From IMG/VR virus record IMGVR_UViG_3300030389_003255, positions 1-64,000 of that record: 64,000 bases of DNA, one strand, 5' to 3'. Below, in pieces: positions 18,557 to 63,077 of the stretch. This DNA is from a virus. A program made the position numbers and the translations under genes. Every line of letters begins with the position of its first letter. The stretch's first letter is position 1. Under the pieces are notes generated by a model. The model made no database searches. It was not told where the DNA came from and was given only the letters and a program-made list of their open reading frames with translations.

Positions 18557-19232
18557 TTCTAGAGAAAAATCTCTGCTTGCAGATTTAGTTAAAAAGAAGG
18601 CTAAGTCGCTTAATATTAAAACTGATATTAAATGGATAGAAGTAGGTGATTATGTTTATGATGATGTATGCTTTGAGGCTAAATCAGCAGTAGATTTTCT
18701 AGGTTCAGTTCTTAGTAAAAGAATGTGGACTCAACTAGACAATATGGACAGATGTTATAAAAATAATATATTATTAATCTACGGTGATTTAGATAAGGCA
18801 ATAATGAAGGTAATAGAAAATAGTAAAAGTAAGTTACCAATACAAGGGAGAATAAAATTGTTTCACAATAAGTTTCTAGGGGGTTTATCTAGAATCATAT
18901 TAGACACAGATGTTAAACCTATTTGGGTAAAGTCTGAAGAAGAAGCCGCCCTTATTATTACTTCTGTTAGCAAGATAAAACCAGTATCAAGAGATACGAT
19001 ACAACCACAAGTGCATAAAAGATTATCAACCGACGACCTACGACTAGATTTACTAACTAGCATTAAAGGGGTGTCGATTAAAAAAGCAAAACTATTGATT
19101 AAAAACTTCGGTTCAATAATGGAAATAGGTGAATGTTCAGTAAGAGAACTATGCAAATTAGAAGGGTTTGGAGACACCCTTTCCAAAAGAATACTCTCCA
19201 CTTTAAACTCCGAAGATAAGGTGAAAATATGA
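18543..19232 (+). CDS. ERCC4/XPF-family structure-specific nuclease with HhH motifs
   Basis: VIDSRE, GDYVY..CFEAKS..DF..S, then IKGVSIKKA..L...FGS and LEGFG HhH repeats. Confidence 0.9.
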   Translation: MLVIDSREKSLLADLVKKKAKSLNIKTDIKWIEVGDYVYDDVCFEAKSAVDFLGSVLSKRMWTQLDNMDRCYKNNILLIYGDLDKAIMKVIENSKSKLPIQGRIKLFHNKFLGGLSRIILDTDVKPIWVKSEEEAALIITSVSKIKPVSRDTIQPQVHKRLSTDDLRLDLLTSIKGVSIKKAKLLIKNFGSIMEIGECSVRELCKLEGFGDTLSKRILSTLNSEDKVKI

Positions 19233-45927: not shown

Positions 45928-47310
45928 TCAAAGTAGATTTGTAATCTTACCCTGTCCTCTAAAGTATGAACAACCAACCTCACCAATAGTTCGGTAAAGT
46001 GCTTGGTTTCCTAGAGTTCCAACACCGAATGGGTTTCCGTTACTAATACCATCTTCAAAGTATTGAGTTGGTTTCATAACTGATAGCCACAAATGGTCAG
46101 TATCTAGAATCAACATATCAGAAAGTCCAGTAGATAGAGAGTGGTGCTTTGTTGATGGCATAGCCGCAACAGGAATTAGTGGGATATCGTAATAAGTAGA
46201 AACTCTAAATCCGACTTCTTGACCCTTTACACCACGAACACCATTTACGGTTGGCACAATTTCTTTACCATCCATGAATCTTTCTTGTGCTTGTAGCAAA
46301 TCACTCAATGTTTGTAGAGTATCATATCCAGTTAGTATAACCTTTGGAGAACCACCGTTTTGTCGAATTTCTCTTAGAGTTTGGTTAATCAAACTTAGAG
46401 TCAAAGACCTTTGGCCACTTGCTGAGTAAGTTCCATCATTTACAACTGCGTTCATGAAAGAAGAAGTTGTAGCGGCTCTATCACTGTTACCGAATAGAGT
46501 AGAAACTTCTGCTACACCATTTGTAGTGTCTGTATCATCGTATGTTCCGTTCTTAATCAAATCATTTGCTTTCATGTTCTGTAGTTCTTCGTTACTAGAA
46601 ATAACCTTTAGTAATGAAGTATAGTTTCTTTCAATTGTAGCAATTGTTGTTGTTACTCCGCCATCGAAGTCATAAACTTCTAGAGGCATAACTAGCATTT
46701 GGTTCTGAACTTCTGCATGGTGCTTACCCATATCTTCACGCATTTGCGCTCTAATGTCGCCAATACCATCATCAATTTGTGCAAGTTCCATAGCAAGTTC
46801 GCTGAACTCAAATTGATGTGCAATAATCTTTGGGCTTGTAAATAGTGTAGAATACTTTGGTGCAATAGAAAACAACCCATCAGCGTTAGTTCCTAGTTTA
46901 GCATTTTCAGGAACACCACCAATCAAATCGGGTCTTAGTGTGCTTGCTCCAATAAAGGCATCAGAATTAGCCCCTGTTCTTGCGCTTACATCTAGTGAAT
47001 TTCCACTACCACCAGCAGGTCTTTCTACCAATACTCTCCAACCACTTGAAACATATGGTCTCTTTGAAATAACTGAAAGTGCATTACATTCTCTGTTTAG
47101 CATTGACCAAACCTTTTGACCAAATACTCGGTTATATAAAGCGGCTCTATCTCCTATTGATGAAGTTCCGCTTCCTACTCCTAGTGTGGTATCATGGCCA
47201 CTGTGTAGTGCTTGAACTGCACCACTTTGTTTTAGCAATTGACCGCTAATGCCCGATAGTCCGTATGTCTGTCTTTCTAAATCTGCTATTGTGTTAATAT
47301 ATCCTGTCAT
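45928..47310 (-). CDS. major capsid protein (HK97 fold)
   Basis: 460 aa directly after the protease/scaffold; GGVPEN, PKIIAHQFEFSE, GGSPKVILTG, YYDIPLIP and ILDTDHL. Confidence 0.85.
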   Translation of the reverse strand: MTGYINTIADLERQTYGLSGISGQLLKQSGAVQALHSGHDTTLGVGSGTSSIGDRAALYNRVFGQKVWSMLNRECNALSVISKRPYVSSGWRVLVERPAGGSGNSLDVSARTGANSDAFIGASTLRPDLIGGVPENAKLGTNADGLFSIAPKYSTLFTSPKIIAHQFEFSELAMELAQIDDGIGDIRAQMREDMGKHHAEVQNQMLVMPLEVYDFDGGVTTTIATIERNYTSLLKVISSNEELQNMKANDLIKNGTYDDTDTTNGVAEVSTLFGNSDRAATTSSFMNAVVNDGTYSASGQRSLTLSLINQTLREIRQNGGSPKVILTGYDTLQTLSDLLQAQERFMDGKEIVPTVNGVRGVKGQEVGFRVSTYYDIPLIPVAAMPSTKHHSLSTGLSDMLILDTDHLWLSVMKPTQYFEDGISNGNPFGVGTLGNQALYRTIGEVGCSYFRGQGKITNLL

Positions 47311-47311
47311 C

Positions 47312-48607
47312 TTAATAACCTCCTACCATTTTGTGAATCTCTGACCAATCCATTTCAGCCAAATCTTCCATACTTGGGAGTTCTTCTTCTGCCGCCTTTT
47401 GTGCCTTTAGAATTGTTTCTTTTTCAGCAGTCAAAGACTTTCTTAATTGAGTAAACTCATCTTTTAGAGATGCTATTTCGGCTTGAGCATCATATTGTGA
47501 CTTTGCCAAAATATTTTCTCGATTTGCTCTTTCTGCGTTAAATCTTGCATTAAATTGCTTTTCTAAATTACTTAGAGCAATTTCTTCTAGTTGCTCTTGT
47601 CGATAAGACTCATATGCTTTCTCGATATTTAGGTTAGAAAGGTTTAGTGTATCTAATTCATCATTGTTAAATGCTTTAACAACAGGAAGTCCACTTGGCT
47701 TAGGATTGCCATTATCAATAACAATTCTATCAGCAGGTTCTCCAATTTCGACACCTGCTCCGTCCAATGTAGCAACATAGGCTTTATCTGCCATTTTGTC
47801 ACCATATGCACCTCTTTCCATGTCATCAGTAGGGACATCTTGCATTCTTTCCATGTTTTTCATCCTTTCCATGTCTTTCATCCTTTCCATGTCCTTCATA
47901 GATTCCTTTTCTTCATCCATGTTTTCCATCATATTCTCATCTTCCATAGACTCTTTCATGGATTCTTTATCCTCCATCATTTCAGTGTCCATCATTTCGG
48001 CTTCTTCTTTTCGTAGCGTATTGACTTGCTCCATTAGAGTGTCAAGTTCCGCCAATGCTTTTTCTAACTTGCTCATATTTTTCACCTGTTTATCTTGCTT
48101 TAAAATATCAAATCTTGCTTCGGGATTTATTCCTTTTTCACAAATTGTTACCTCATGCAATTCCAGTTTGCTTATTTCATTGTAATCTCCTAACTCCGGA
48201 TGACTTTTCTTTACTTTTTGTAATGCCTGTCCTCCTATGCTAAATGACCTCAATGAACCTTTTCTTACGCCTCTTCCTATTTCTTTGGCTTTTTCTATAT
48301 CATCTCTTAACTTAATTACTACGAAGAAACCAACATCATCTACTTCTGTTTTCCACAATCTCCCCGTTTTATCTCGATATGATTTTACTACTTCTCCAAC
48401 TTGAACATTTGAGTGATTTGTCATTACATTTCTAAACTTTGGATTTTGCATATACTTCTCTACTGCTTCTTCTAAAGCCTTTAGTGTAATTAAATCGTTT
48501 TGTTTATCCACGATTTCTATGCTTGCATATCCTCCAATCATCAAGTCTTGATTACTTTTTAAGATGCTAAAGTCGTTGGCTCTATTACTTATCACCGCAG
48601 AACTCAT
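47312..48607 (-). CDS. prohead protease fused to scaffolding domain
   Basis: GGYASIEIVDKQND, MTNH (His), SFSIGG (Ser) and EVTICEKGINPEA; acidic/Met-rich and coiled-coil C-terminal half. Confidence 0.88.
   Translation of the reverse strand: MSSAVISNRANDFSILKSNQDLMIGGYASIEIVDKQNDLITLKALEEAVEKYMQNPKFRNVMTNHSNVQVGEVVKSYRDKTGRLWKTEVDDVGFFVVIKLRDDIEKAKEIGRGVRKGSLRSFSIGGQALQKVKKSHPELGDYNEISKLELHEVTICEKGINPEARFDILKQDKQVKNMSKLEKALAELDTLMEQVNTLRKEEAEMMDTEMMEDKESMKESMEDENMMENMDEEKESMKDMERMKDMERMKNMERMQDVPTDDMERGAYGDKMADKAYVATLDGAGVEIGEPADRIVIDNGNPKPSGLPVVKAFNNDELDTLNLSNLNIEKAYESYRQEQLEEIALSNLEKQFNARFNAERANRENILAKSQYDAQAEIASLKDEFTQLRKSLTAEKETILKAQKAAEEELPSMEDLAEMDWSEIHKMVGGY
47843..47899 (-). repeat. 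3 x 18 bp tandem repeat encoding (MK[D/N]MER) in the scaffold linker
   Basis: + strand units cattctttccatgttttt / catcctttccatgtcttt / catcctttccatgtcctt. Confidence 0.85.
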
Positions 48608-52002: not shown

Positions 52003-52370
52003 TTTATCAATCTCCTTTTAGCCTTCTTTAATTCATCTTCGCAAGTTCTCTTAACTGAACTAATAACGGATTAAAATCATTTTGTAGTTTATTTTGTAAT
52101 TTCGACTCATCTCCCATATAGGAATTTTCATAATAGTCTATTAGGTCATATGCCTCTTCAAGAACTTCTTGAAATTTTCTTCCACGCTCAGTTTGAAAAA
52201 ATCCCTCTTTTTCCTCATTTACAAAATCTCCATAATCATCTAATATGGCTCTTTTTTTAGAGAATAATTTATTCCTTTTTCCTGCCACTTCGGGCATAAA
52301 TCTCCTTGCATCTGATATTGCGTCTCTTGTGCTTATTTTTATAATATCTTTCCATGTCATTTTATCAATC
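51994..52370. repeat. 19 bp direct repeat (51994-52012 and 52352-52370) bracketing ORF 52028..52360
   Basis: ccatgtcattttatcaatc is exact at both sites; it covers the start region and M-T-W codons. Confidence 0.85.
52028..52360 (-). CDS. WxxILK-tag protein
   Basis: Starts MTWKDIIK. Confidence 0.65.
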   Translation of the reverse strand: MTWKDIIKISTRDAISDARRFMPEVAGKRNKLFSKKRAILDDYGDFVNEEKEGFFQTERGRKFQEVLEEAYDLIDYYENSYMGDESKLQNKLQNDFNPLLVQLRELAKMN

Positions 52371-54068
52371 CCTTTTATCTAACATATTTCTAACTATATT
52401 TATCTGTTCTTGTAAAGAATCAAATCTAGTATTTACTCTGTCTACTAACTCTCCAATAAGTCTAACTTCTTTAGGGGTAGTATCTCCTATTCCTGCTCCT
52501 ACTTTTCCATACATATTCAGGTCTAGACTTACACTCTTTTCGGCGTTTCCTATCCACTCTTCTAAAGACTGTTCATTTTCTTTGTTTAGTTGTCTTAATA
52601 TTCTGTCTATTTCCTTTATTCCCTGTGCGGCAAGTTTTACTTTGTTGCCTAAAGTCACTTGGGCTTGGAATATCTCTTGGTCTCCTGTATATTCTCCAAT
52701 CAGACCCCTAGCGTTACGAAATAGTGGCCTATATTTTTCTACAGTTTTTAATTTAGTTTCTATTTCTGCAAGTCTTTCTTTTTCTATTTTCAACTGACCT
52801 TCTATTTCTCTTTGAATGTCTTTTCTTGCTTCCTGTAATATTTCCGGCTGTGCAGACTGAAGTTCTTCCAACATATCTTCTATCTGTTTTTTGGTTAATC
52901 TTCTAGAAGTGCCTCCTAATTTTACTCTAACTGCTCCCTCGGCCTCTTCAACTAACTGTCGCCTTGGGTCTGATTTTCTCAACTCCCTTTTTTTCTTAGC
53001 ATCTCTTTTGTATCTCTCTAATCTAGCAGTTTCTTTTTTTCTTTCTCGTTCAATGCTTTCTGCTATCTTTCGTTGCTGTTCTTCTTCTTCAGGAGTTTTA
53101 TCCCTCTTAGGTTTTTTACCAAGGGCTTCTCTAAACTTACTATCATCTACTAATGTCCTATCTGTATCATCGGAAGCAATATCCGGTAGTCTCTGCGCCA
53201 CATATTCAGCAACTTTTCTTTGAACAGTAGAATAGGCTAAGGTCAGAGCCTTCATTCTTCTTTCAATTAGTATTTCTAAGTCAGCGTCCTTTAGAGTATC
53301 TAAATCATCAATCTGTTTAGTTAGTAATTCTTTAGCACTCATAAGTTCACTAAAAGCAAACATGCTCCTATTTAACGAATTAAGCATGTCCTGTTGTATT
53401 TCCCTTTGTCTAACTATTCCACCGGTAGGGTCGCCAATAACTATGGAACTAAGAAGTCTATTCAGTTGTTGTCTACTTTTAGGTTTATCAATTAAAGAAG
53501 GAGGTATTTCACCGTTAAATCTTCTAGTATATAGCCCCTGTAAAAAAGTTAGAAAATCTTCGTCTGCACCTAGTTCGGTATATTCCCGTTGTAGTTTTTT
53601 AACATCTACTAATTCAGAACTATCGCCTTCTCCCAATCTAAACTTTCCATCAATAATAAATTCTTCATAAGGTTGCTCCATCAAAAGATTTCTTCTACTC
53701 TGTAAAAATACCAACTTGTCGATAATGATATTTATATTGGCCTTACTTATTTTCTTGAAAGTATTTCTAGACATTATATCATAAATTCCATCTTCTACTG
53801 TTCCTCTTTCCTTTATATTTTTCATGTCTTGTAGATATTGATTAAGGACTCTAATATCTCTAGCGGGTTTTCTTCTCCGCTTTTTAGCCATATCGGTCTT
53901 TAGCCTTTCAGCCGCTTCCTCTACCTCAGTTTGTTTAGTTCTATCTTCTAAAGGGTCGAGTCCCTCACTAAAATCTTCTTCTAATTTTTTATCTTCTTCT
54001 AAGTCTCTTGCTATTTCGTCAGGTATGAAGTCATCATCCTCATCTTCCTGTTTGAAAAACAAAGTCAT
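52365..54068 (-). CDS. large coiled-coil head-region protein
   Basis: 567 aa, highly charged and helical. Confidence 0.7.
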   Translation of the reverse strand: MTLFFKQEDEDDDFIPDEIARDLEEDKKLEEDFSEGLDPLEDRTKQTEVEEAAERLKTDMAKKRRRKPARDIRVLNQYLQDMKNIKERGTVEDGIYDIMSRNTFKKISKANINIIIDKLVFLQSRRNLLMEQPYEEFIIDGKFRLGEGDSSELVDVKKLQREYTELGADEDFLTFLQGLYTRRFNGEIPPSLIDKPKSRQQLNRLLSSIVIGDPTGGIVRQREIQQDMLNSLNRSMFAFSELMSAKELLTKQIDDLDTLKDADLEILIERRMKALTLAYSTVQRKVAEYVAQRLPDIASDDTDRTLVDDSKFREALGKKPKRDKTPEEEEQQRKIAESIERERKKETARLERYKRDAKKKRELRKSDPRRQLVEEAEGAVRVKLGGTSRRLTKKQIEDMLEELQSAQPEILQEARKDIQREIEGQLKIEKERLAEIETKLKTVEKYRPLFRNARGLIGEYTGDQEIFQAQVTLGNKVKLAAQGIKEIDRILRQLNKENEQSLEEWIGNAEKSVSLDLNMYGKVGAGIGDTTPKEVRLIGELVDRVNTRFDSLQEQINIVRNMLDKRD

Positions 54069-54077
54069 TTAATCACC

Positions 54078-54302
54078 TTAGAATGGAATATTTTCTTTTT
54101 TTCCTCTCTGTTTAGGTGGAAGAGTTATCACATCGGGGATATCCGCACTACTAGGCCTTGGTTTTGGTGTAGTGTCTTTTGGCAGTCCTACACTAAAATC
54201 TCTATTTTTAGTAGTCTTTCTACTTTCGTTGTTATTAGCGGCTCTCACCTGTGCCAACTCTTTTCTTAGTCTTATTTCTTTTTGTCTATTATCTTCGGTC
54301 AT
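54078..54302 (-). CDS. hypothetical protein
   Basis: ATGA-coupled to the portal gene. Confidence 0.55.
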   Translation of the reverse strand: MTEDNRQKEIRLRKELAQVRAANNNESRKTTKNRDFSVGLPKDTTPKPRPSSADIPDVITLPPKQRGKKENIPF

Positions 54303-55933
54303 GGTATTCTCCTCTCACTTCTTCTATCTACATTTTGATTGCCAGCATCTTCGGGTAATCCTGTTAGTCGCTTATCCGGCCCTACACTCATAGAAGGTTT
54401 ATTTCTTGTGGTTGCTGGATTTTCTTGTTTCTTTGAACCTTGTAGTTGTTGTTCTTGCATTTGTCCCAATTGACTTGCATCAATATTAGTTCCCGCATAA
54501 GGGTCTAGTTCGACTTTATTCTCACTAGAACCTTCTTGTGGGGGTTCTTCAACAGGTTCGGGCTTTTTGAAAGTAAAGTTTCCGTCCTCATCCATTTCAA
54601 CTTCAAAGCCTAGATTCTTAGTAGAGGCCGCAATATTAACTTCGATTTCTCTTTTTCTTAATACTGCTATTTCATCTTCTTCTTCGCTCGGTGGTAGTTT
54701 TAGATTCCAGTCAGTAATGCCGAATTGCTTAACTAAAAATGGAAATACATAATTGTTGTAAACATTCTGTGCCATTTGAACGGCTCTATTAGTTACTAAT
54801 ATCTGCATGCCTTCATTATTCAATCCACCACTAGTAGTATTATCTGCCATAAACACTTTACTAACTCCAAAGAAAGCAGAAATTCTATCTCTCAAATCAT
54901 CCTTAACAGAAACATATTCCATTTCTTTTAGACTATCCATAAATTTAATCCATTCTACAGAACCTTTGCCCTCTGCTTCTATACCCATAATAGGAATAAA
55001 GTGAGGGTCTTGTTCCATCTTTTCTTTTACGGCTTTCCAAAAAGATTGCATAGAATCCATATTTCTAGTCTGAACTGCTAATAATCCTCTAGGCATACGG
55101 CTTTTAGTATAGGAAGAATTGACATAATTTTCCATAGCAATAAGTGTCATTATGTTATTAAATAAGGTAACAATAGGAGATTGACCATATAATCTAGAAG
55201 GACTATACTTACTAAAATGTAATACTTCTCCTTTCAAGAAATACTGTTCTTCTCCAGTTGCCCTATTAACATAATGAACAGGAAATGTCTTAGCACCGCA
55301 ATGTTCACAAGGAACATGAGCGTCTTTTGAGAAAAATTCTCTATGATTAACACAAGTAAAAGCAGTATTTCCTCTTTCTCCATATTCATCAGTATAGATA
55401 TACATTGTTGCAGGGTCGCCACGATACACTTCTTTGATTCGATGCATTCTAATATCGCCATTACCATCTAAAAAGTATTCTTTTACCAATACGATGTAAG
55501 CGTCATCCATAACATTTAGGTCATCTTCTAATTGTTTTAGCACATCAATAAACAACTGCTCTGATTTATTGACATATCCCTCGATAAACTCCTCTGCATA
55601 TTTTAATTGGTCTACATCCGGAACTTTTAGTTTTTCACTACCACATCTAGAACATTCAGAGACAGGCCTTTGGTGTTTCTTTTTACAGTCTAAACACATA
55701 GCCTCGTATGCCTTTTCCCAAACATACCCTCTACGAAATATCTCTTGTTTTAATTGAGTGATACAAGTTCTAACAATTACCGACTGATTTACTATGTGGT
55801 AAATTAGAGGGGCAGTCATATGATAGGTATTTGGCCTCTCTTGTATTCCTATATTGTAGATTTGCCTATCAGCAGGTTTTGGAGTAGTTCTTCTAAATAA
55901 ATTCCTAATTGAGAATCGTCTTTGCTCAACCAT
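54299..55933 (-). CDS. portal protein with Zn-ribbon insertions
   Basis: VRTCITQL, EVLHF...LYGQSPI, MPRGLL, DMEY-like KEMEY and RISAFFGVS; between terminase and protease. Confidence 0.85.
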   Translation of the reverse strand: MVEQRRFSIRNLFRRTTPKPADRQIYNIGIQERPNTYHMTAPLIYHIVNQSVIVRTCITQLKQEIFRRGYVWEKAYEAMCLDCKKKHQRPVSECSRCGSEKLKVPDVDQLKYAEEFIEGYVNKSEQLFIDVLKQLEDDLNVMDDAYIVLVKEYFLDGNGDIRMHRIKEVYRGDPATMYIYTDEYGERGNTAFTCVNHREFFSKDAHVPCEHCGAKTFPVHYVNRATGEEQYFLKGEVLHFSKYSPSRLYGQSPIVTLFNNIMTLIAMENYVNSSYTKSRMPRGLLAVQTRNMDSMQSFWKAVKEKMEQDPHFIPIMGIEAEGKGSVEWIKFMDSLKEMEYVSVKDDLRDRISAFFGVSKVFMADNTTSGGLNNEGMQILVTNRAVQMAQNVYNNYVFPFLVKQFGITDWNLKLPPSEEEDEIAVLRKREIEVNIAASTKNLGFEVEMDEDGNFTFKKPEPVEEPPQEGSSENKVELDPYAGTNIDASQLGQMQEQQLQGSKKQENPATTRNKPSMSVGPDKRLTGLPEDAGNQNVDRRSERRIP

Positions 55934-55985
55934 ATAACTTACCCCTAATCATTCTCAATCTACTACACATTATAGTATCTTTGGC

Positions 55986-56324
55986 TCAACTTCCCTTTCG
56001 CCATTTTTTATTTTTCTTTTCTTTTGTTTTTCTAGGACTCCATTTTACTTTATCAGCCCAATAAGCCGCAGACATTTTACCCCTCTTAATATTCTTCTTA
56101 TGTCTACTTTTGAAAGCCCTTCGCTGTCCTGCGGTTTGATTTGTTTTTACTCCTTGTTGTCCAAACCTAATTGTTTTTACTTTATCACCATCTTTTACAA
56201 CAACAATGTGAGATTTACTTGGGTGCTTTGGAGTTCTTTTTGGCTTGCTAAATCCACTTACTCCGGCTCTAGCAAGAGCAGGATGTTTCTTCTTCTTTTT
56301 GAGAATATCCATCCAATTACTCAT
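55986..56324 (-). CDS. basic WxxILK-tag protein (KTIRFGQQG...RH...SAAYWA family)
   Basis: Starts MSNWMDILKK; very Lys/Arg-rich. Confidence 0.7.
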   Translation of the reverse strand: MSNWMDILKKKKKHPALARAGVSGFSKPKRTPKHPSKSHIVVVKDGDKVKTIRFGQQGVKTNQTAGQRRAFKSRHKKNIKRGKMSAAYWADKVKWSPRKTKEKKNKKWRKGS

Positions 56325-56884
56325 AAGCATCACCTAACATATATCCTATTTTTTTTCCCGCCTCTATATCGCTTGGATAGTGGCTTCCCATCTGTATTCT
56401 AGATAATGATATTCTATCGGCCATTTGTTTTAATTGTTTCTTCTTTTTCGGAAACTTTCTACCTAACACTCTTTCTAACCCATGTGCTAGCATAGAATGA
56501 CCACTAGGGAAAGCAGGAGTATCATCGGTTGTTGTTTTCGTTGTGGGTATTTTATTACTCACTTGAAATGGTCTAGGTCTTTTATATTTCATTTTTTCAG
56601 TGATAGCGTAGTGATTCACATCTAACATAAAATCTTCATAGTCATCCCTATTCTCTCCAACGATTTTAAACATCTCTATATCAGGCTTTAAATCAGCATC
56701 TTTCATTTCTGTTGGTTCAAGTTTCTTTTCTTTCATAACCTTTAGAACTTCAGGTATTTCTTTTTCTTCTTTAGGGTAACTCATTTCAGGTATCTTTATT
56801 TTTATTGATGGAGTTCTCTTTAAGGATTCTTTTCTATTAGCGGCAAGTTCTCCCTGCCACTTTCTTTTGAGAATATCCATCCAA
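56297..56884. repeat. 20 bp direct repeat (56297-56316 and 56865-56884) bracketing the PAP2 gene body
   Basis: ttttgagaatatccatccaa is exact at both sites; it encodes W-M-D-I-L-K on the - strand. Confidence 0.85.
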
Positions 56885-56889
56885 CTCAT
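56317..56889 (-). CDS. PAP2-family phosphatase/haloperoxidase-like protein with WxxILK tag
   Basis: K-x4-RPRP, PAFPSGH and SRIQMGSHYPSD; starts MSWMDILKR. Confidence 0.85.
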   Translation of the reverse strand: MSWMDILKRKWQGELAANRKESLKRTPSIKIKIPEMSYPKEEKEIPEVLKVMKEKKLEPTEMKDADLKPDIEMFKIVGENRDDYEDFMLDVNHYAITEKMKYKRPRPFQVSNKIPTTKTTTDDTPAFPSGHSMLAHGLERVLGRKFPKKKKQLKQMADRISLSRIQMGSHYPSDIEAGKKIGYMLGDAYE

Positions 56890-56893
56890 GCTA

Positions 56894-57097
56894 TCACTTT
56901 GGTTTATGAGTGTAAATATCTCCATCTTTATGCATGAATATCTTACCGTCTTTTTCTAATTCGGCTAAGGCTCGTTTTATTTCCGCTTCTTCACCAAATT
57001 GTTTTAGATTCTTCATACCCAATGCCCCGCCTTCTTTTTTAATTTCAGCAAGAATTTTTGCTTTTATGTCTTGTTTTATTATGTCCTTCCATGTCAT
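56894..57097 (-). CDS. small winged-helix-like protein with WxxILK tag
   Basis: MTWKDIIK...IKRALAELEKDGKIFMH. Confidence 0.6.
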   Translation of the reverse strand: MTWKDIIKQDIKAKILAEIKKEGGALGMKNLKQFGEEAEIKRALAELEKDGKIFMHKDGDIYTHKPK

Positions 57098-57549
57098 GCT
57101 TTCATCCTCTTTGTTTTTTCCTTGCTTGATTCTCTTCTTGCTAATGCTACTTTATGTGCCGCATTCAATCTCTTTTTTGCTTCAGGGTCTTTAGCCCTTC
57201 TAGCCGCAACTCTCGCTCTTTGTTCTACTAAATTAATTATTTGTGATTGTCTTTTGTGAGGTTTATCTTTAAACGCAGAACTTGAGAAGGTTTCTCTTAC
57301 ATCTTGTGCTGTTCTAAATTTTACGGGAACAGTATCTTTTGGATTCTCATCTGTATATAGCCTTCTAGCAGAACCCTTTGGTTTTTTACCAGTTCCTTTT
57401 TTGGGGTCTTTCTTTAGAATATCTTGCCAACTCTTTTTTACATAACCGCTAGCATAAGCCGCTTGAGCGACTTGAACCGCTTTCTTTCTTGTTTTAAATG
57501 GCCCTCTAGAACCCCAATAATAACCATCTTTCTTTTTAGTAATAGGCAT
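57094..57549 (-). CDS. basic two-module protein with internal WQDILK
   Basis: MPITKKKDGYYWG...ASGY-VKKSWQDILKK-DPKKGTGKKP... Confidence 0.65.
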   Translation of the reverse strand: MPITKKKDGYYWGSRGPFKTRKKAVQVAQAAYASGYVKKSWQDILKKDPKKGTGKKPKGSARRLYTDENPKDTVPVKFRTAQDVRETFSSSAFKDKPHKRQSQIINLVEQRARVAARRAKDPEAKKRLNAAHKVALARRESSKEKTKRMKA

Positions 57550-57554
57550 ATTAA

Positions 57555-57863
57555 TCACTTTCTAGTAAATTCAGTAGTTTTTTTATATCTCTCAGCAATA
57601 TTAGCCCCTACCACTATACGCATTCCCACTTGACCCATCCAATTATTAAGTTTAGAATATATTGACCTTCTATTTCTAAAAATATTTGAAGGAACATTAT
57701 TTATTTTCATATTCTGTATGAACTTATCAATAAATTTTTTATCCTTTAAATTAAACTTTTGACCTGTAGGTATTTCTTCAACTGTTTGTATCAAAGACTT
57801 CTTAACTTTTTTAAAATGCTTGCTTAAAAAATTAGAAGATTTCAAAATACTAATCCATTTCAT
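57555..57863 (-). CDS. WxxILK-tag protein
   Basis: Starts MKWISILKS. Confidence 0.6.
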   Translation of the reverse strand: MKWISILKSSNFLSKHFKKVKKSLIQTVEEIPTGQKFNLKDKKFIDKFIQNMKINNVPSNIFRNRRSIYSKLNNWMGQVGMRIVVGANIAERYKKTTEFTRK

Positions 57864-57869
57864 GGTTAA

Positions 57870-58358
57870 TCACCTGCCTCTATCAAAAGATTGTTCTAAA
57901 TCTTTAGCATATCTAAGCATATTCCTACCTTCTCTGATTCTTTTTCTACTACCAGTCATTAACAACTCGCCAGTTAGTTTCATCATCTTTATTGTTTTTT
58001 GAAACATGGCTTCTGTTCCTTCATCTAACTTATCGGAATATTTTCTACGCTGTGTATATTTTCCCCTTTCAAAATCTTTCAAAACATTCTCAACTATTCC
58101 ATTAGTAATCGCTTGTTGTAGACTACCTTGCGATAATTCAAACCATCTACCATCAGCATAAAATTCAGCAAGAAAATTATAATACTCTTGAAATTTTTCC
58201 TGTGGAACTTGTATCGGTATTGAAGAAAGATTTTGAGGTTTAGATGTAAAGACATTACCTATATTTTGTTTAGTTCCTTTTCTTTGTAACCAAAGATTAG
58301 CATTAGTGGCCATTCTGCCAACTATTGCTGTTTGTTTGATTACACTTAACCAAGACAT
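57870..58358 (-). CDS. WxxILK-tag protein
   Basis: Starts MSWLSVIKQ. Confidence 0.6.
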   Translation of the reverse strand: MSWLSVIKQTAIVGRMATNANLWLQRKGTKQNIGNVFTSKPQNLSSIPIQVPQEKFQEYYNFLAEFYADGRWFELSQGSLQQAITNGIVENVLKDFERGKYTQRRKYSDKLDEGTEAMFQKTIKMMKLTGELLMTGSRKRIREGRNMLRYAKDLEQSFDRGR

Positions 58359-58363
58359 TTCAA

Positions 58364-58645
58364 TCACTTTTGACTAAACTTTTTTCCTGTTGGAACATGC
58401 TGTTTTCCTTTCTTTCGGCCTTTTCTTTTCTTAGCATCTTGATACCTTAGAGTTTTTTTATCTGTTCTTTTGTAAGTTGCTCTTGGCATGTATCTTCCTT
58501 TAGTTTTAGATTTAGGTTTTTTACCCTTATCTTTGGCTCTATGCTGTTCAGCACTTCCCCAATCCTCATCAGTCCATGTGGATAAATCCCGTTGCCTTTT
58601 TGTTTTGGCTTTGAGGATATTACGCCAATTAATTCTTATAGCCAC
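58364..58645 (-). CDS. basic protein (DUF5872 C-half-like) with WxxILK tag
   Basis: Likely GTG start; INWRNILKA...LSTWTDEDW...GRYMP...GKQHV. Confidence 0.55.
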   Translation of the reverse strand: MAIRINWRNILKAKTKRQRDLSTWTDEDWGSAEQHRAKDKGKKPKSKTKGRYMPRATYKRTDKKTLRYQDAKKRKGRKKGKQHVPTGKKFSQK

Positions 58646-58841
58646 CACCAGCCCTTTTATATGCTTGAGCCAACATTTGTGCTTTTCTTGCAGACCATTG
58701 ACCTGCCGCACCACCCTTAGTTCCTCTTTTTATTCTATTGAATATTCTTTTACGCATAGCGGGTTTAGTGTAATTACCCGACTGATTAACAGTTGATTTT
58801 CGCTTTTTCTTTTTCTTTTTCAATACATCTTGCCAACTCAT
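58629..58841 (-). CDS. DUF5872-like basic protein with WxxILK tag
   Basis: MSWQDVLKK...NYTKP...GGAAGQWSARKAQMLAQAYKRAGGGY. Confidence 0.7.
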   Translation of the reverse strand: MSWQDVLKKKKKKRKSTVNQSGNYTKPAMRKRIFNRIKRGTKGGAAGQWSARKAQMLAQAYKRAGGGYKN

Positions 58842-58857
58842 CTTTTATCACCTTTAA

Positions 58858-59625
58858 TTATATCTTGCCTCTTTGCCTTAACAGTTGTATTGCTTGTTTA
58901 TATGCCTCATCTGCTCTATAATCCCAGTTTTGATTGATATTTATTCCCATCTCTTCTGCAACATCTTGTTTCAATGGAATTTCTTTATTCATATTAACTA
59001 GCATGTTTACGGTTTCTTTAACCACATTAGGGTCAATTTTTCTTTCATCTGTTTTTTGCCCCACACTACCTGCTAATTTAACTGCACCCTCGACGGGTTC
59101 TAAGCCCTCTACTCTCATAGTTTCCATAAATAGTCGTAGTGTTTCGGGGTCAGTTAAATCAATATAGTATTTATCATTAGCATATTCAGTTAATTTAACA
59201 GGGTCATTGAATATTTCTAATTTTTCATCAACAGACATATATGTATTTAATCTTCTTTGTAAGTTATTTTCTTTCTTAATTAATTTTCTAAGTTGCCGTT
59301 CTAATTGTTTATTTCTTTTAGCGTTATATTTTATATCTTCATCATAATAACTGCTATTGTCCCAACTATAGTTTTCTTTTTTAGAATTTTCATAATCTTC
59401 TTTAGTTTGAAAGATTACAATTTTATTATTGTATAAGTCTATTTCTCCTAAATTATTTTGATTAACATTGTCTATTATTTCGTTAATTTGTTTTACTACT
59501 TTTTTTAACTCGTTTGAAGTTTTTGTGACCATGCCTTTAAAGTTCTGCACAAAAAAAGGTTTAATTTCTTCTACAAAAGTTCTAACCCTACCAAGACTAC
59601 TTTTTAATATATCCTGCCATCTCAT
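58858..59625 (-). CDS. WxxILK-tag protein
   Basis: Starts MRWQDILKS; possible C-terminal HTH. Confidence 0.65.
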   Translation of the reverse strand: MRWQDILKSSLGRVRTFVEEIKPFFVQNFKGMVTKTSNELKKVVKQINEIIDNVNQNNLGEIDLYNNKIVIFQTKEDYENSKKENYSWDNSSYYDEDIKYNAKRNKQLERQLRKLIKKENNLQRRLNTYMSVDEKLEIFNDPVKLTEYANDKYYIDLTDPETLRLFMETMRVEGLEPVEGAVKLAGSVGQKTDERKIDPNVVKETVNMLVNMNKEIPLKQDVAEEMGININQNWDYRADEAYKQAIQLLRQRGKI

Positions 59626-59764
59626 ACCTTTACCTCCTGCGGACTACCTTTTCTTACCCAACACTCTTTACAAAATCCAAACGCATACGCTATATCTGCT
59701 ATATAACAGCATCCAAAATACTTGAATTGTGTGGATTGTTTATATCTCACCCACTCAATTAATG

Positions 59765-61123
59765 TCAAGCCAAAATTCCTCCTATGTTTTCTAATTCATC
59801 CATTACTGACATTTTACAATTGTCCTTGTATTTCTGTATGTCATCTAAATATATTCCTTCTTTTAGCCAATCAAAACCAACATGGTCTTTGTGATTTTCC
59901 CACTTCATCAATTTGAAAATTTCATCACAACGGCTCTTATACCAGTCAGCCTTCTTGTAAGATTTTTTCATGCGTATCAATTCTAATAGTAGTTCAGCAT
60001 TACCTTTCTTTAGCCTAAAATGAGGTAAACATTTTGTTAGTAGTTCACTAACATCTGCCTGAGAATAAAAGTTTAAGCGGTTAATTAGTCTAGTATCTTG
60101 CGGTGATTTTTGGTCTAAGTGCATACGACCAAATCCTATTGACTTGTGCATTTCTTTCATGAATACCTTTCCTCTTTCACCAGTAGCAACTAGTCCGACT
60201 CTAGGATTCATATTTCTATCTAAAGTAATATAACCATCTGAATCAATAAATGCGGCAGTATAAGCCCAAATATTCTTTTTGATGAGAGATGGGACTTTGT
60301 AGTAAGAACCATTATGTGAAGCAACATCTAACTTTCTTATTGTTTTGGAAATCATATTTGGATTTGTTATATTAAACATATCAACAGGCATCTTTTCATG
60401 TATACCTTTAGCCGTAATGCCTTGATGTTTTGTTATAGTATTTTCAATAAATTCTAGTTGTCTTTCTTTTTTGCTTTTGTTTAGAGTCTGAGTCTTGACT
60501 GCTTTAAGACACTCCCTAAATTCCTTTTTTGCTTGCGACATTTCCTTAGATAATCTACTATATTCTTTTGAATAAGCCATTCCCTCTCTATCTAATTCAG
60601 CCTCCCAGTATTTACAAAGCGAATCTACTATGCCTCTCCTAGACTCAATATCTTTCATTTTATTTAGTCTCGATAAATCTTTTTCAGTAAATCTCATTTT
60701 CCTAAAAGGTTGTTTGTAAGGTGCTAACCAAAAGATACTATCAATTGATTTCTCTAAATGCTCACTATAAGCATCTATTACTACATCAATGGCCTTAGAC
60801 ATATTTTCTCTAAGACTCCCCTTTAATTCTCTACGATTGCTTCTCATTTTTTTAACAAGTTCTGGAACAGTTTGCTCATGAATAATATATTGTTTTGGAA
60901 AAACATCTAGCATCTTTCTTGCTTCACTAGCATTGATAGAATATGTTTTAGAAACCAGTGCCAATTCATCTACTTCTGACATAACATAATCCGTTACTAA
61001 CAGTTTTTTAACTTCTATATTTTCGGGTAAGTCATCTAGTATTTCTTCTTCTTGTTGTGCTAACTCTTTGATTCTTCTAAACTGTTCTTCTGCTTCCCCT
61101 GCCTCTTCTACAGTTAGACTCAT
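59765..61123 (-). CDS. helical N-terminal domain plus wHTH plus LAGLIDADG endonuclease domain
   Basis: AYTAAFIDSDGYI motif, GFGRM and LPHFRLKKGNA in the C-terminal third. Confidence 0.8.
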   Translation of the reverse strand: MSLTVEEAGEAEEQFRRIKELAQQEEEILDDLPENIEVKKLLVTDYVMSEVDELALVSKTYSINASEARKMLDVFPKQYIIHEQTVPELVKKMRSNRRELKGSLRENMSKAIDVVIDAYSEHLEKSIDSIFWLAPYKQPFRKMRFTEKDLSRLNKMKDIESRRGIVDSLCKYWEAELDREGMAYSKEYSRLSKEMSQAKKEFRECLKAVKTQTLNKSKKERQLEFIENTITKHQGITAKGIHEKMPVDMFNITNPNMISKTIRKLDVASHNGSYYKVPSLIKKNIWAYTAAFIDSDGYITLDRNMNPRVGLVATGERGKVFMKEMHKSIGFGRMHLDQKSPQDTRLINRLNFYSQADVSELLTKCLPHFRLKKGNAELLLELIRMKKSYKKADWYKSRCDEIFKLMKWENHKDHVGFDWLKEGIYLDDIQKYKDNCKMSVMDELENIGGILA

Positions 61124-61132
61124 ATAAACACC

Positions 61133-62557
61133 TCAAAAATTTAACCCTAATAATCCTGCATTATTTCGTGTTGGCTTAGGGTCATCAAATAGTCCCATAT
61201 TATCTAATAGTATGAATTTATCTGATATTTGGTAAGTGGCCGCATTTGCTAAGGCTAGGCTCATAACCATGTCGTCATGCGCCCCTACACCCTCAAACTT
61301 ACCTCTTTCAGTAATAGCAAACATAGATAATTCTTCTATCAATGTTGAAGTAACTCTTCTACTTTCTTCATTACCATAAGGAAAATTTATCTTATTGTTT
61401 TCTAAACTCATTTGTAGATTAAGAATTATCTCCTGTTTCTTTTTTCGAGTAGTATTAAAATCATATAAGTTTAAATCAGCAACCTGCCGTAACTCTTGAG
61501 TAAATGATTTAGCAAAAGTGTTCGTTTCAAATAAGATTACCTCCGGCCTAAATACTTGATTAATTAGTTTTACTTTCTGTATATTTTCTCTAAACTCTAC
61601 ATTTTTTGCTCTGTCTACATAAACTATTGATTTATTTTCTTCTTCATCCATCTCGATTACTGTGATTACATTATAATCTCCATCAGTAGAAATAGCAGGG
61701 TCAATTCCAACATAATATTTGTAGCCCTCTCTTTTCATAGGCTTCAAAACTAAACTACTATTTTTTGCCGACTCTAAATATTCCGGATTAAATAAAGAAG
61801 TCCCTGTAGAAATAGGAACACACATATATTCTCTTGTAAACATTAGTGAACCCACTTCTGCCTTTCTAGCCATAAGAGAATCATAATCCCATCTATTAGG
61901 CCATAGCGGTTCATTAAGAGCATTAAGGCATGGATATGTTCTAAGAGTGTATGCAGGATTTTCTGATAGTTGAGCATAAATGTCGGTATAACTAAATGGA
62001 GTTCCGATAACTCTTAGCGATGCTGAGTGATGAAGTGTCGGTATCATATCGCCATAAAACCAATCAGTTACCTTTTGAATACCACTTATACTAAACTCTT
62101 TTAGAGGGTCGTCAATGATAATTTCTTGCGGGTGAAGTCCACGAATCTGTGAACCGACAGAACGCTCTAAGATTTGATTACCATTAGTCAATGTAATATT
62201 TCCTATCGCCCAACCTCTAGGCGGCTTGAATTTTTTAAGTAGAGGATTATTGAATAGTTTATCTATATCTCTCATGTGAACCATAGTCTGTTTTTGGTTA
62301 GAAGAAATATATAGCATTTGATATGGTGGTTCTTGAAATACCAAATTCCATACTACCCAAGCATGCATAAATACTGATTTACCGTGACCTCTTGAACAAA
62401 TTATGACAGTTCTTTGAGTATCATTCATAAGTTCTAACCATTCTTCTTGATGTTTAGCGAACTCCCAACCTAATACATTTTGAAAGAAGTATGGAAATGA
62501 GTTTTTAGATAACTCCATATCCATTTGATGTTCAAAGTTTAACGCCTCTATATCCAA
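61133..62557 (-). CDS. terL: terminase large subunit
   Basis: Walker A SRGHGKS, Walker B IIIDD, VIGTP, nuclease GIDPA and HDDMVMSLALA. Confidence 0.95.
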   Translation of the reverse strand: MDIEALNFEHQMDMELSKNSFPYFFQNVLGWEFAKHQEEWLELMNDTQRTVIICSRGHGKSVFMHAWVVWNLVFQEPPYQMLYISSNQKQTMVHMRDIDKLFNNPLLKKFKPPRGWAIGNITLTNGNQILERSVGSQIRGLHPQEIIIDDPLKEFSISGIQKVTDWFYGDMIPTLHHSASLRVIGTPFSYTDIYAQLSENPAYTLRTYPCLNALNEPLWPNRWDYDSLMARKAEVGSLMFTREYMCVPISTGTSLFNPEYLESAKNSSLVLKPMKREGYKYYVGIDPAISTDGDYNVITVIEMDEEENKSIVYVDRAKNVEFRENIQKVKLINQVFRPEVILFETNTFAKSFTQELRQVADLNLYDFNTTRKKKQEIILNLQMSLENNKINFPYGNEESRRVTSTLIEELSMFAITERGKFEGVGAHDDMVMSLALANAATYQISDKFILLDNMGLFDDPKPTRNNAGLLGLNF

Positions 62558-62558
62558 A

Positions 62559-63077
62559 TTAATACCTCTTTAAAATTAAATGCCAAGACTTTTCTATCTT
62601 GTCAGCCGGTTTGATTCCCCAAGCCGCACCCTTTTCTTCAGCATAATCCGTTATTTTTTTAATTATATTTTTAGGAATAGAATTTAACAGGTTAGGTTCT
62701 ATATTTGTTATTTGCCAACCTGTTTTTTCATTAGCCGCTATCCAACTTGGCGCATTAACAAATGTAGCAAGTAGGGGCTTATTGGGTATGACTTCAGCAC
62801 GAAAAGGAACTAGGTCACTCATATGTCCTCTAGGAGAACCTTGAATAGATTGAGTTCCCCCGACTATTACATAATCGGGATGCTCTGTCCAGCCAGTAGT
62901 AGAGATTGTTTTATCATTATCATCAACTCTAATAATCCATTTATTTAAATCATAAAAAGAGGGAGGAGAGCCTGCTCTAACATAAGGTTCATTTGGATTA
63001 TCAGTATTCCATCTTTCCTTCATCTCCTCGAAAGAAAAAATCTCATCCAAAACTTTCGGCATAATTATCCCTACCAA
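62559..63077 (-). CDS. hypothetical protein (possible GNAT-like fold) with C-terminal WxxILK
   Basis: Ends KIEKSWHLILKRY. Confidence 0.6.
   Translation of the reverse strand: MVGIIMPKVLDEIFSFEEMKERWNTDNPNEPYVRAGSPPSFYDLNKWIIRVDDNDKTISTTGWTEHPDYVIVGGTQSIQGSPRGHMSDLVPFRAEVIPNKPLLATFVNAPSWIAANEKTGWQITNIEPNLLNSIPKNIIKKITDYAEEKGAAWGIKPADKIEKSWHLILKRY

What the first reader, a model, noticed from the sequence alone, without database searches (positions are those of the whole stretch)
52028..63077. Shared W-x-x-[IV]-[LI]-K tag on eleven unrelated head-region proteins: candidate capsid cargo-addressing system
Seen: N-terminal tags MTWKDIIK (52360), MSNWMDILK (56324), MSWMDILK (56889), MTWKDIIK (57097), MKWISILK (57863), MSWLSVIK (58358), INWRNILK (58645), MSWQDVLK (58841) and MRWQDILK (59625); an internal KSWQDILK joining two modules (57094..57549); and a C-terminal KSWHLILK (62559). 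The bodies are unrelated (PAP2 phosphatase, wHTH, DUF5872-like and other basic proteins). All lie around terminase and portal, and I saw no such tag in replication or tail genes. The tag resembles the scaffold end (WSEIHK), and [IL]-L-K sites flank the protease domain (SILKS, DILKQ) and occur near the capsid N-terminus (LLKQ). Established analogy: the T4 capsid-targeting sequence and encapsulin cargo peptides. Inference: a portable signal that loads diverse effectors into the prohead, possibly cleaved after Lys, for delivery at infection.
Basis: partly seen in the sequence, partly recalled or inferred. Interest (0 to 1): 0.92.

Follow-up and report, generated by a model that had tools for sequence, protein, structure and literature searches.

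The report
Shared address tag on archaeal-virus proteins
About 30 otherwise unrelated proteins of this marine archaeal virus (a magrovirus) carry the same eight-residue tag, which looks like the virus's own scaffold end and protease cutting sites, so it most likely addresses them into the forming capsid for delivery into the next host cell.

Summary
All 11 W-x-x-[IV]-[LI]-K sites sit in real minus-strand genes at 52028-63077. The full 92.8-kb genome has 28 strict sites against 0.5 expected, all in a minus-strand zone at 52-78.6 kb.

The tag is selected at protein level: Leu uses six codons. It recurs in 80 relatives (400 coding-strand hits against 3 opposite), on 90 unrelated sequence clusters. 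It is usually M-[ST]-W-x-[DE]-I-L-K at the N-terminus, sometimes at fusion joints or C-termini. Marine bacteriophage homologues of three bodies lack it.

[IL]-L-K lies at both edges of the prohead-protease domain in 166 sequences from four divergent magrovirus groups, and near the capsid protein's N-terminus. The scaffold ends in W-S-[DE]-I-H-K. A profile built from the tags ranks these five sites among its 13 best non-tag hits.

Best reading (about 0.55): a capsid-addressing propeptide trimmed after Lys, analogous to the T4 capsid targeting sequence but not homologous to it. Packaging and cleavage are inferred, not shown. The held magrovirus papers do not mention the motif.

The parts
52028..52360 (-). 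110-aa acidic protein with N-terminal tag MTWKDIIK
   Evidence: profile score 18.6
55986..56324 (-). 112-aa very basic protein (pI 11.8), tag MSNWMDILK plus K-rich linker. The body is 67% identical to Celeribacter phage P12053L gp37, which has no tag.
   Evidence: (phrog_7595 match begins at residue 10)
56317..56889 (-). 190-aa PAP2-family phosphatase with N-terminal tag MSWMDILK
   Evidence: Pfam PF01569, E 4.4e-12, residues 99-185
56894..57097 (-). 67-aa protein, tag MTWKDIIK; possible Z-alpha-like winged helix (weak)
57094..57558 (-). 154-aa fusion: 40-aa module ending in AYASGYVKK, then internal tag SWQDILK, then a basic body. In relatives the same 40-aa module plus tag precedes four different bodies.
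57555..57863 (-). 102-aa basic protein, tag MKWISILK
57870..58358 (-). 162-aa basic protein, tag MSWLSVIK
58364..58633 (-). 89-aa basic protein, tag INWRNILK. An Ile codon (ATT) sits where Met normally does and overlaps the upstream TAA. The body is homologous to Puniceispirillum phage HMO-2011 gp59.
   Evidence: (phrog_14910)
58629..58841 (-). 70-aa very basic protein (pI 11.9), tag MSWQDVLK. The body is 79% identical to part of HMO-2011 gp63, which has no tag.
   Evidence: (phrog_17747 from residue 9)
58858..59625 (-). 255-aa protein, tag MRWQDILK; no family found
62559..63077 (-). 172-aa GNAT-fold protein just upstream of the terminase, with C-terminal tag KSWHLILK-RY-stop. In relatives the tag at this position is followed either by 2-6 residues and a stop or by a further module of 70-440 aa.
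   Evidence: AF2 pLDDT 80.7 with a flexible terminal helix at 165-171; all top Foldseek hits are GNAT acetyltransferases; relatives hit Pfam GNAT families
47312..48607 (-). Prohead protease (S78) fused to a scaffold domain. Invariant D-F-x-I-L-K|S at 12-18, F-D-I-L-K|Q at 166-171 and I-L-K-A at 399-402; C-terminal M-D-W-S-E-I-H-K-M-V.
   Evidence: Pfam PF04586, residues 19-172
45928..47310 (-). Major capsid protein with an invariant L-L-K at residues 25-27 (candidate maturation site)
   Evidence: Pfam PF17236
51414..51653 (-). 79-aa protein ending in the same M-E-W-S-E-I-H-K-M-V motif as the scaffold; second scaffold or adaptor
54299..55933 (-). Portal protein (context; anchor for finding relatives)
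   Evidence: Pfam PF04860
61133..62557 (-). Terminase large subunit (context)
   Evidence: Pfam PF03237 and PF17289

Best explanation
The tag is a short, portable capsid-addressing propeptide. Its W, I and L residues would lie on one face if it folds as a helix, and it copies the motif at the C-terminal end of the virus's own scaffold (W-S-[DE]-I-H-K). That scaffold end is presumed to dock on the inner face of the capsid protein while the prohead assembles. Any protein carrying the tag, at its N-terminus, its C-terminus or a domain joint, is therefore co-assembled into the prohead. The last three residues, I-L-K, are the recognition site of the S78 prohead protease. The protease cuts after Lys, as it would at the two edges of its own domain and near the capsid protein's N-terminus. 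This frees the cargo, and splits fused modules, inside the shell. The cargo stays with the DNA and enters the next host cell. It includes small very basic proteins, a PAP2 phosphatase, a GNAT-fold protein, a family of eight acidic paralogues and many unknowns.

Shown: the tag, its protein-level selection, its portability, its restriction to one genome zone, and its similarity to the scaffold end and the protease-domain borders.

Inferred: binding to the capsid protein, cleavage after Lys, presence in virions, and delivery.
For: - Enrichment: 28 strict motifs against 0.54 expected in the genome. In 80 relatives, 400 on the coding strand against 3 on the opposite strand, 298 of them with Met 1-3 residues before the W.
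- Synonymous codon variation at every tag position. The longest shared DNA between any two tag sites is 22 nt.
- 90 of 240 sequence clusters carry the tag in at least half of their members.
- Close homologues of three bodies in marine bacteriophages lack the tag, and PHROG profiles start right after it.
- It works in any position: internal at fusion joints, and C-terminal followed by 1-6 residues.
- [ILV]-[LI]-K|[SAG] before the protease domain and [FY]-x-I-L-K|[EQM] after it are invariant in 166 non-redundant sequences from four groups whose portals are only 39-46% identical to the window's. The scaffold C-terminal W motif is conserved in the same set. An [IL]-L-K site near the capsid protein N-terminus was seen in two of the groups: invariant L-L-K in 52 window-group sequences and D-I-L-K or E-L-L-K in three loci of the P0128 group.
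- A profile trained only on relatives' tags scores 27 genome sites at 11.5 or more. After a gap, 5 of its 13 best non-tag sites are the three protease I-L-K sites and the two W-S-E-I-H-K ends, although these two proteins hold 1.7% of all residues.
- Across ten other families of the module, eight (including portal and terminase) have no [IVL]-[IL]-K conserved in 90% or more of members. The other two, the 829-aa ligase and the 79-aa scaffold-like protein, have one each.
- HK97, the type S78 system, has Lys103-Ser104 at the position I recall as the capsid maturation cut (residues read).
- Five complete relatives show the same one-strand, one-zone clustering.
- Analogy: T4 internal proteins are diverse and share only a capsid targeting sequence (PMC3012670).
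Against: - No virion proteomics, N-terminal data or structure exists for any magrovirus; none has been cultured.
- About 32 tagged genes, roughly a quarter of all genes, is a very large cargo list for a 93-kb virus.
- Two thirds of the tagged genes lie next to the divergent control region, where host-takeover genes made early would also be expected.
- The aromatic residue is at P6 in tags and the scaffold end, but at P5 in the two protease-border sites and absent in the capsid-protein site. One recognition rule does not fit all of them.
- [IV]-[LI]-K outside tags is not depleted in structural proteins, so the tripeptide alone cannot be sufficient for cutting.
- C-terminal tags would lose only 1-6 residues on cleavage.
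- The W-tag expansion is specific to the window's group. It is weak in one group and not detected in two of the three other magrovirus groups sampled, and absent from the head region of the nearest cultured relative, HVTV-1.
Confidence: 0.55

Rival explanations
1. Processing signal only. The tag is simply a cleavage site for the prohead protease or another Lys-specific protease and carries no addressing information. The proteins are matured or activated by removal of eight residues, or fused modules are separated, either in the cytoplasm or after entering the capsid by other means.
For: I-L-K is shared with the conserved protease-domain borders and the capsid protein N-terminal site. Internal tags sit exactly at module joints. 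The library holds a 2026 preprint titled 'Phage protease enzymes activate CBASS antiphage immunity' (PMC12991175, listed; abstract only, not read further).
Against: The invariant W at P6 is missing from the protease and capsid-protein sites but matches the uncleaved-looking scaffold end (W-S-D-I-H-K). Removing 8 residues from an N-terminus, or 1-6 from a C-terminus, has no obvious activating effect. Prohead proteases are normally active only inside proheads (general knowledge), which would in any case require the substrates to be there.
Confidence: 0.15
2. Docking motif for some other common partner. The tag is a short linear motif that brings many viral effectors to one hub unrelated to the capsid interior, for example the portal or terminase, a chaperone, the GNAT-fold enzyme (the invariant Lys or the N-terminus as its substrate), or a host complex.
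For: It works in any position, as short docking motifs do. Two thirds of the tagged genes lie in an early-looking block of small fast-evolving genes next to the divergent region. A GNAT-fold protein is itself always tagged.
Against: This does not explain why the five best look-alike sites in the proteome are all in the protease-scaffold and the second scaffold-like protein. It also does not explain why I-L-K marks the protease borders in all four groups. No candidate receptor was identified.
Confidence: 0.15
3. Turnover signal. The tag is an N-terminal degron that times the destruction of early proteins by a host or viral protease.
For: Mostly N-terminal; found on many small accessory proteins.
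Against: C-terminal and internal copies exist. The motif is present on the scaffold end. No link to any degradation machinery was found.
Confidence: 0.05
4. Nucleic-acid element. The conserved sequence is really a DNA or RNA signal at gene starts (a translation-initiation region, or a recombination site for gene cassettes), and the peptide is a by-product.
For: Some neighbouring tag-coding stretches share 20-22 identical bases, for example those bracketing the PAP2 gene. The terminase-portal island is highly variable, with 0-9 tagged genes in 53 relatives. The tags may therefore secondarily ease cassette exchange.
Against: Leu is encoded by six different codons, Ile by three and Lys by two across the sites. 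Conservation follows the amino acids, not the bases. Tags also occur inside and at the ends of ORFs.
Confidence: 0.03

Closest known systems
Phage T4 capsid targeting sequence (CTS) of internal proteins IPI-III, Alt and others, removed by the gp21 prohead protease
   Same: A short N-terminal peptide is the only thing shared by otherwise diverse, fast-evolving proteins. It ends in the prohead protease's consensus site. The cargo includes small basic proteins and enzymes and is delivered with the DNA (PMC3012670; details of IP and Alt biology from general knowledge).
   Different: There is no sequence relationship. T4 cuts after Glu in [LI]-x-E (general knowledge), here after Lys in I-L-K. The T4 protease belongs to family S77 (from memory); this one matches Pfam Peptidase_S78, the HK97-type family. 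This tag also works at C-termini and domain joints, resembles the scaffold's own end, and marks about 30 genes per genome rather than a handful. The host is an archaeon.
Encapsulin cargo-loading (targeting) peptides
   Same: A short conserved peptide at either terminus of unrelated cargo proteins, encoded next to an HK97-fold shell protein and docking on the shell's inner face (PMC10960027 and PMC11866011 abstracts).
   Different: Encapsulins have no portal, DNA, protease or scaffold, their peptides are not cleaved, and each system usually loads one or a few cargo types. Here the shell is a true virus capsid and the peptide carries a protease site.
C-terminal capsid-binding tails of scaffolding proteins and of the HK97 maturation protease (Duda, Oh and Hendrix 2013, J Mol Biol 425:2765; title seen, content from memory)
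   Same: The protease-scaffold here ends in a conserved W-S-[DE]-I-H-K-M-V motif, duplicated on a 79-aa protein. The tag matches it at W, the acidic residue, I and K.
   Different: In HK97 and P22 the tail serves only the scaffold or protease itself. Here the same kind of motif appears to have been copied onto dozens of accessory proteins.
Ejection and inner-body proteins of giant phages (phiKZ, SPN3US) processed by the prohead protease
   Same: Many head-internal proteins per virion are cut at one consensus site by the prohead protease (PMC7411985 and PMC10052503 abstracts).
   Different: Those genomes are 240-280 kb, the site is [SAG]-x-E (general knowledge), and propeptides are long and not a uniform 8-residue tag.
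Polyvalent head proteins (PHROG 220 'minor head protein and DNA pilot'; HVTV-1 gp113 and gp115)
   Same: One tagged body matches a segment of the PHROG 220 profile (E 6e-5). Related viruses place giant multi-domain proteins at the same place in the head module.
   Different: Here the modules are separate small genes, each with its own tag, rather than one long chain.

Membership tests
T4-type capsid targeting sequence system (functional class) | A short terminal peptide is the only similarity among otherwise unrelated proteins of one virus | tested here: met
   All-against-all BLASTP puts tagged proteins in 90 separate clusters; logo
T4-type capsid targeting sequence system (functional class) | The peptide ends in the cleavage consensus of the virus's own prohead protease, shared with capsid and scaffold processing sites | tested here: inconclusive
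   I-L-K is shared with the invariant sites at both protease-domain borders and near the capsid protein N-terminus. No cleavage site has been determined experimentally.
T4-type capsid targeting sequence system (functional class) | The tag is sufficient to encapsidate a foreign protein, and cargo is found trimmed in virions | not testable with these tools
   Needs expression or virion proteomics; magroviruses are uncultured
T4 CTS / gp21 (homology) | S77 protease and an [LI]-x-E cleavage motif | tested here: not met
   The protease matches Pfam Peptidase_S78. The conserved sites end in Lys, not Glu.
Encapsulin cargo-loading peptide | Terminal peptide on cargo encoded beside an HK97-fold shell protein | tested here: met
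   Tagged genes share a strand with the capsid protein gene and lie 5-32 kb upstream of it (Pfam SU10_MCP)
Encapsulin cargo-loading peptide | The shell is a DNA-free compartment without portal, terminase or maturation protease | tested here: not met
   Portal, terminase and prohead protease are present
Scaffold or protease capsid-binding tail | A conserved motif at the extreme C-terminus of the scaffold or protease | tested here: met
   M-x-W-x-[ED]-[IV]-H... is conserved in 166 sequences of four groups and duplicated on the 79-aa protein
Scaffold or protease capsid-binding tail | The motif binds the inner surface of the capsid protein | not testable with these tools
   Only single-chain prediction is available, and the capsid-protein model itself failed (pLDDT 43.8)
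GNAT acetyltransferase (for the 172-aa protein at 62559-63077) | GNAT fold | tested here: met
   AF2 pLDDT 80.7. All top Foldseek PDB hits are GNAT enzymes, probability 1.0, TM 0.45-0.53.
GNAT acetyltransferase (for the 172-aa protein at 62559-63077) | Recognisable acetyl-CoA-binding sequence motif or family-level sequence match | tested here: not met
   No Pfam hit for the window's copy. Only the positional counterparts in loci L036 and L057 pass Pfam GNAT thresholds, and pairwise BLASTP to them gives E 0.08.

The most novel reading that the evidence does not exclude
Magroviruses, among the most abundant archaeal viruses in the surface ocean, load an arsenal of roughly 30 different effector proteins per genome into their capsids. 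Across the lineage these come from at least 90 sequence families, many taken from bacteriophages. They do so with one universal eight-residue address tag that evolved by copying the scaffold's capsid-binding end and joining it to the protease site. If so, the set of proteins injected by an uncultured virus group can be read directly from sequence. The tag would also be a ready-made, position-independent handle for packaging foreign proteins into an HK97-fold shell.
Probability: 0.45. Interest if true: 0.85.

Novelty: new variant of a known kind. Interest (0 to 1): 0.78.

Why it matters
Magroviruses infect Marine Group II archaea, which are abundant but uncultured, and most of their genes have no known function (PMC5434244).

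- **Annotation.** A tag that marks a quarter of the genes as probable virion cargo gives a first functional handle on about 90 orphan families. It points to which proteins act at the moment of infection.
- **First archaeal example.** I know of no capsid-addressing sequence described for an archaeal virus, or for an S78-protease system at this scale.
- **Origin.** It suggests how such signals arise, by copying the scaffold's own capsid-binding end.
- **Gene flow.** Genes taken from bacteriophages are fitted with the tag, which shows how foreign genes can be recruited into a virion.
- **Testability.** The idea can be tested with three or four cloned genes, without culturing host or virus.

Tried and rejected
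- **DNA-level repeat or start-region signal:** rejected because of synonymous variation.
- **Chance or composition:** rejected by shuffles and the opposite-strand control.
- **Avoidance of I-L-K elsewhere in structural proteins:** tested and not found. Counts match shuffles, so this gives no support either way.
- **Co-variation test:** I hoped the tag and the protease site would change together in distant groups. I-L-K is invariant in all four groups, so no such test was possible.
- **AlphaFold model of the capsid protein**, to place the L-L-K site: failed (pLDDT 43.8) and was not used.
- **ESM Atlas search for the eight-paralogue family:** nothing usable.
- **Pfam and PHROG on 20 further tagged or neighbouring proteins:** almost all blank.
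Distant relatives were reached through the search for related loci instead.
- **HVTV-1 head region:** no comparable tags.
- **Duda et al. 2013** could not be read, so its content is cited from memory.
- **LIR/AIM-like [W]-x-x-[IL] motif:** considered and dropped as a mere resemblance. To my knowledge no Atg8-type partner exists in these archaea.

Full report
**What the window is.** It is part of a 92,771-bp tailed archaeal virus genome. The portal is 28% identical to those of haloviruses HVTV-1 and HCTV-1/5 and 78-99% identical to hundreds of marine IMG/VR contigs of 90-96 kb. This fits the magroviruses of Marine Group II archaea (PMC5434244). Genes at 1-21.9 kb and 82.7-92.8 kb are almost all on the plus strand (replication). 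Genes at 22-82.6 kb run on the minus strand. In transcription order they are a block of small genes, the terminase, the portal, scaffold-like proteins, a ligase, the protease-scaffold, the capsid protein and the tail.

**Observation.** All eleven reported sites are present and in frame. The remaining strict W-x-x-[IV]-[LI]-K hits in the six-frame translation of the window are in junk ORFs of at most 48 codons or span a stop codon. In the whole genome, 28 strict motifs fall in called genes, against 0.54 expected from within-protein shuffles (maximum 4 in 1000). Counting degenerate copies (W-Q-D-E-I-K, W-K-N-M-I-R, and a C-terminal W-I-D-I-L-R-N-stop), about 32 of 131 genes are tagged. All are on the minus strand between 52,028 and 78,605. 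None lies in the tail genes, the capsid gene or the replication genes. The rest includes eight paralogues at 71.1-75.9 kb that share the tag plus an acidic 35-residue head.

**Protein signal, not DNA signal.** Across 29 sites Leu is written with six codons, Ile with three and Lys with two. The longest identical DNA shared by any two sites is 22 nt.

**Relatives.**
- In 80 loci around portals 78-99% identical, the strict motif occurs 400 times on the coding strand and 3 times on the other. In 298 cases Met lies 1-3 residues before the W.
- The consensus is M-[STN]-W-[KQE]-[DEN]-I-L-K, often followed by Lys or Ala.
- Five complete 94-96-kb relatives show the same picture with a DNA pattern for W-x-x-I-L-K: 7-13 hits on one strand against 0-2 on the other. 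Most of the major-strand hits cluster in a 15-27-kb zone around the portal, and 0-2 hits are found for the reversed control pattern.

**Portability.**
- Single-linkage BLASTP clustering of 1,736 ORFs gives 240 clusters. In 90 of them at least half the members carry the tag; 36 of these have two or more members.
- The stretch between terminase and portal holds 0 to 9 tagged genes in 53 relatives, in many combinations.
- Three bodies have close homologues in marine bacteriophages that lack the tag. Celeribacter phage P12053L gp37 is 67% identical to 55986-56324. HMO-2011 gp63 is 79% identical to 58629-58841. HMO-2011 gp59 is homologous to 58364-58633. The corresponding PHROG profiles begin immediately after the tag. 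The tag therefore looks like something added to acquired genes.
- The tag also works away from the N-terminus. A 40-residue module ending in AYASGYVKK is joined through the tag to four different bodies.
- The protein just upstream of the terminase carries the tag after about 165-190 residues, followed either by 2-6 residues and a stop (as in the window) or by extra modules of 70-440 residues. That protein has a GNAT fold (AF2 pLDDT 80.7; all top PDB matches are GNAT enzymes). Positional counterparts in two relatives pass Pfam GNAT thresholds.

**Link to head assembly.** The protease gene encodes an S78 domain (Pfam residues 19-172) fused to a scaffold-like tail.
- Among 65 close homologues, D-F-x-I-L-K|S (12-18) and F-D-I-L-K|Q (166-171) are invariant while the residues before them vary. 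I-L-K-A at 399-402 and the C-terminal M-D-W-S-[DE]-I-H-K-M-V are nearly so.
- A 79-aa protein ends in the same W-S-[DE]-I-H-K-M-V motif, and the capsid protein has an invariant L-L-K at 25-27.
- I then fetched three further magrovirus groups through portals only 39-46% identical to the window's. In 166 non-redundant protease sequences from all four groups, the sites [ILV]-[LI]-K|[SAG] before the domain and [FY]-x-I-L-K|[EQM] after it are invariant. The scaffold end keeps W-x-[EDA]-[IV]-H.
- Capsid proteins from three loci of the P0128 group have D-I-L-K|A-D or E-L-L-K|A-D at the equivalent place.
- A position matrix trained only on relatives' N-terminal tags scores 27 sites in this genome at 11.5 or more, then drops to 7.0. 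Among its 13 best non-tag sites, five are the three protease I-L-K sites and the two W-S-E-I-H-K ends. These two proteins hold 1.7% of the residues.
- As a control, I scanned ten other families of the module. Eight, including portal and terminase, have no [IVL]-[IL]-K conserved in 90% or more of members. The 829-aa ligase and the 79-aa protein have one each.
- HK97, the reference S78 system, has Lys103-Ser104 at the position I recall as the capsid maturation cut. The residues were verified; the cut site itself is from memory.

**Mechanism proposed.** The tag joins two functions. The W-x-[DE]-I part copies the scaffold's capsid-binding end and takes the protein into the assembling prohead. The I-L-K part is then cut by the protease, releasing cargo and separating fused modules. 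The scaffold end has His where the tag has Leu, which may keep it uncut until later; this is speculation. HVTV-1, the nearest cultured relative, has a T=13, 88-nm head for 102 kb, while T5 packs more DNA in a T=13 head of similar size (head data from PMC12810830; T5's genome of about 121 kb is from memory). A 93-kb genome in a like-sized shell would leave room for protein, but the magrovirus capsid size is unknown.

**Where the other groups differ.** The mass expansion of W-tags is a feature of the window's group: 516 coding-strand hits against 16 with a relaxed pattern. One other group has a weaker signal (134 against 45) and two have none. In those groups the protein before the terminase still starts with A-W-x-[IV]-[LV]-K or ends with ...I-L-K-G-x-stop. 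A single 1,860-1,900-residue protein sits between portal and protease, with a few positionally conserved I-L-K sites and an embedded ligase-like domain. HVTV-1 has two giant proteins there and no tags. The window's group thus seems to have replaced long multi-domain head proteins with many separately tagged genes.

**Weak points.**
- Nothing shows that any tagged protein is in a virion or is cut.
- Thirty-odd cargo species is a lot for this genome size.
- Most tagged genes lie where early takeover genes are also expected.
- The aromatic residue sits at P6 in tags but at P5 at the protease borders.
- [IV]-[LI]-K elsewhere is not depleted.

These points keep alive two rivals, a pure processing signal and a docking motif for another hub. 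A degron and a nucleic-acid element are unlikely.

**Novelty.** The four magrovirus papers I queried for the relevant terms do not mention an N-terminal motif, propeptides or cargo. The principle is known from T4, giant phages and encapsulins. The motif, the protease family, the position independence, the apparent origin from the scaffold end, the scale and the archaeal host are new.

Noticed in passing
genome 64001-78605 (outside the window; locus L081 1000-15605): About 21 further tagged genes, including a 707-aa protein and eight tandem paralogues (genome 71083-75890). The paralogues share the tag plus an acidic E-D-I-D-I-D-I-E-D-D-D-C head and have divergent C-terminal halves. No family or fold match was found for them.
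   Followed up: partly
window 55986-56324, 58364-58633, 58629-58841: Three small, very basic proteins have homologues in marine bacteriophages of Roseobacter, Pelagibacter, Puniceispirillum, Synechococcus and others. For 55986-56324 and 58629-58841 the best matches are mostly 52-79% identical. This suggests recent gene flow between bacterial and archaeal viruses sharing the same water.
   Followed up: partly
window 58629-58636: The gene at 58364-58633 has a conserved Ile codon (ATT) where the tag's Met normally sits, overlapping the upstream gene's TAA (ATTAAT). This means either a non-canonical start with termination-reinitiation, or a frameshift fusion with the upstream tagged gene. The arrangement is conserved in many relatives.
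   Followed up: partly
window 62559-63077: The protein just upstream of the terminase, where a small terminase subunit would be expected, has a GNAT acetyltransferase fold. In relatives it is fused through the tag to varied extra modules. No small terminase was identified.
   Followed up: partly
window 48665-51154: An 829-aa protein with an ATP-dependent DNA ligase domain lies inside the head module. Its ligase part is homologous (25% identity, E 1e-16 to 1e-19) to a segment of the 1,860-1,900-aa protein that other magrovirus groups encode between portal and protease. It may be a virion-carried ligase.
   Followed up: partly
window 59765-61123: A 452-aa protein between terminase and portal is conserved in the three P0128-group loci compared (28-29% identity) and has no Pfam match. 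It occupies the place where HVTV-1 has an HNH endonuclease.
   Followed up: no
window 56298-56316 and 56866-56884: Twenty identical bases of tag-coding DNA bracket the PAP2 gene. Together with the very variable gene content of the terminase-portal island, this suggests that tags double as microhomology for swapping gene cassettes.
   Followed up: partly
genome about 81500-81700 (locus L081 about 18560-18720): A short run of masked or unknown bases interrupts a 205-aa ORF (X residues in the translation).
   Followed up: no
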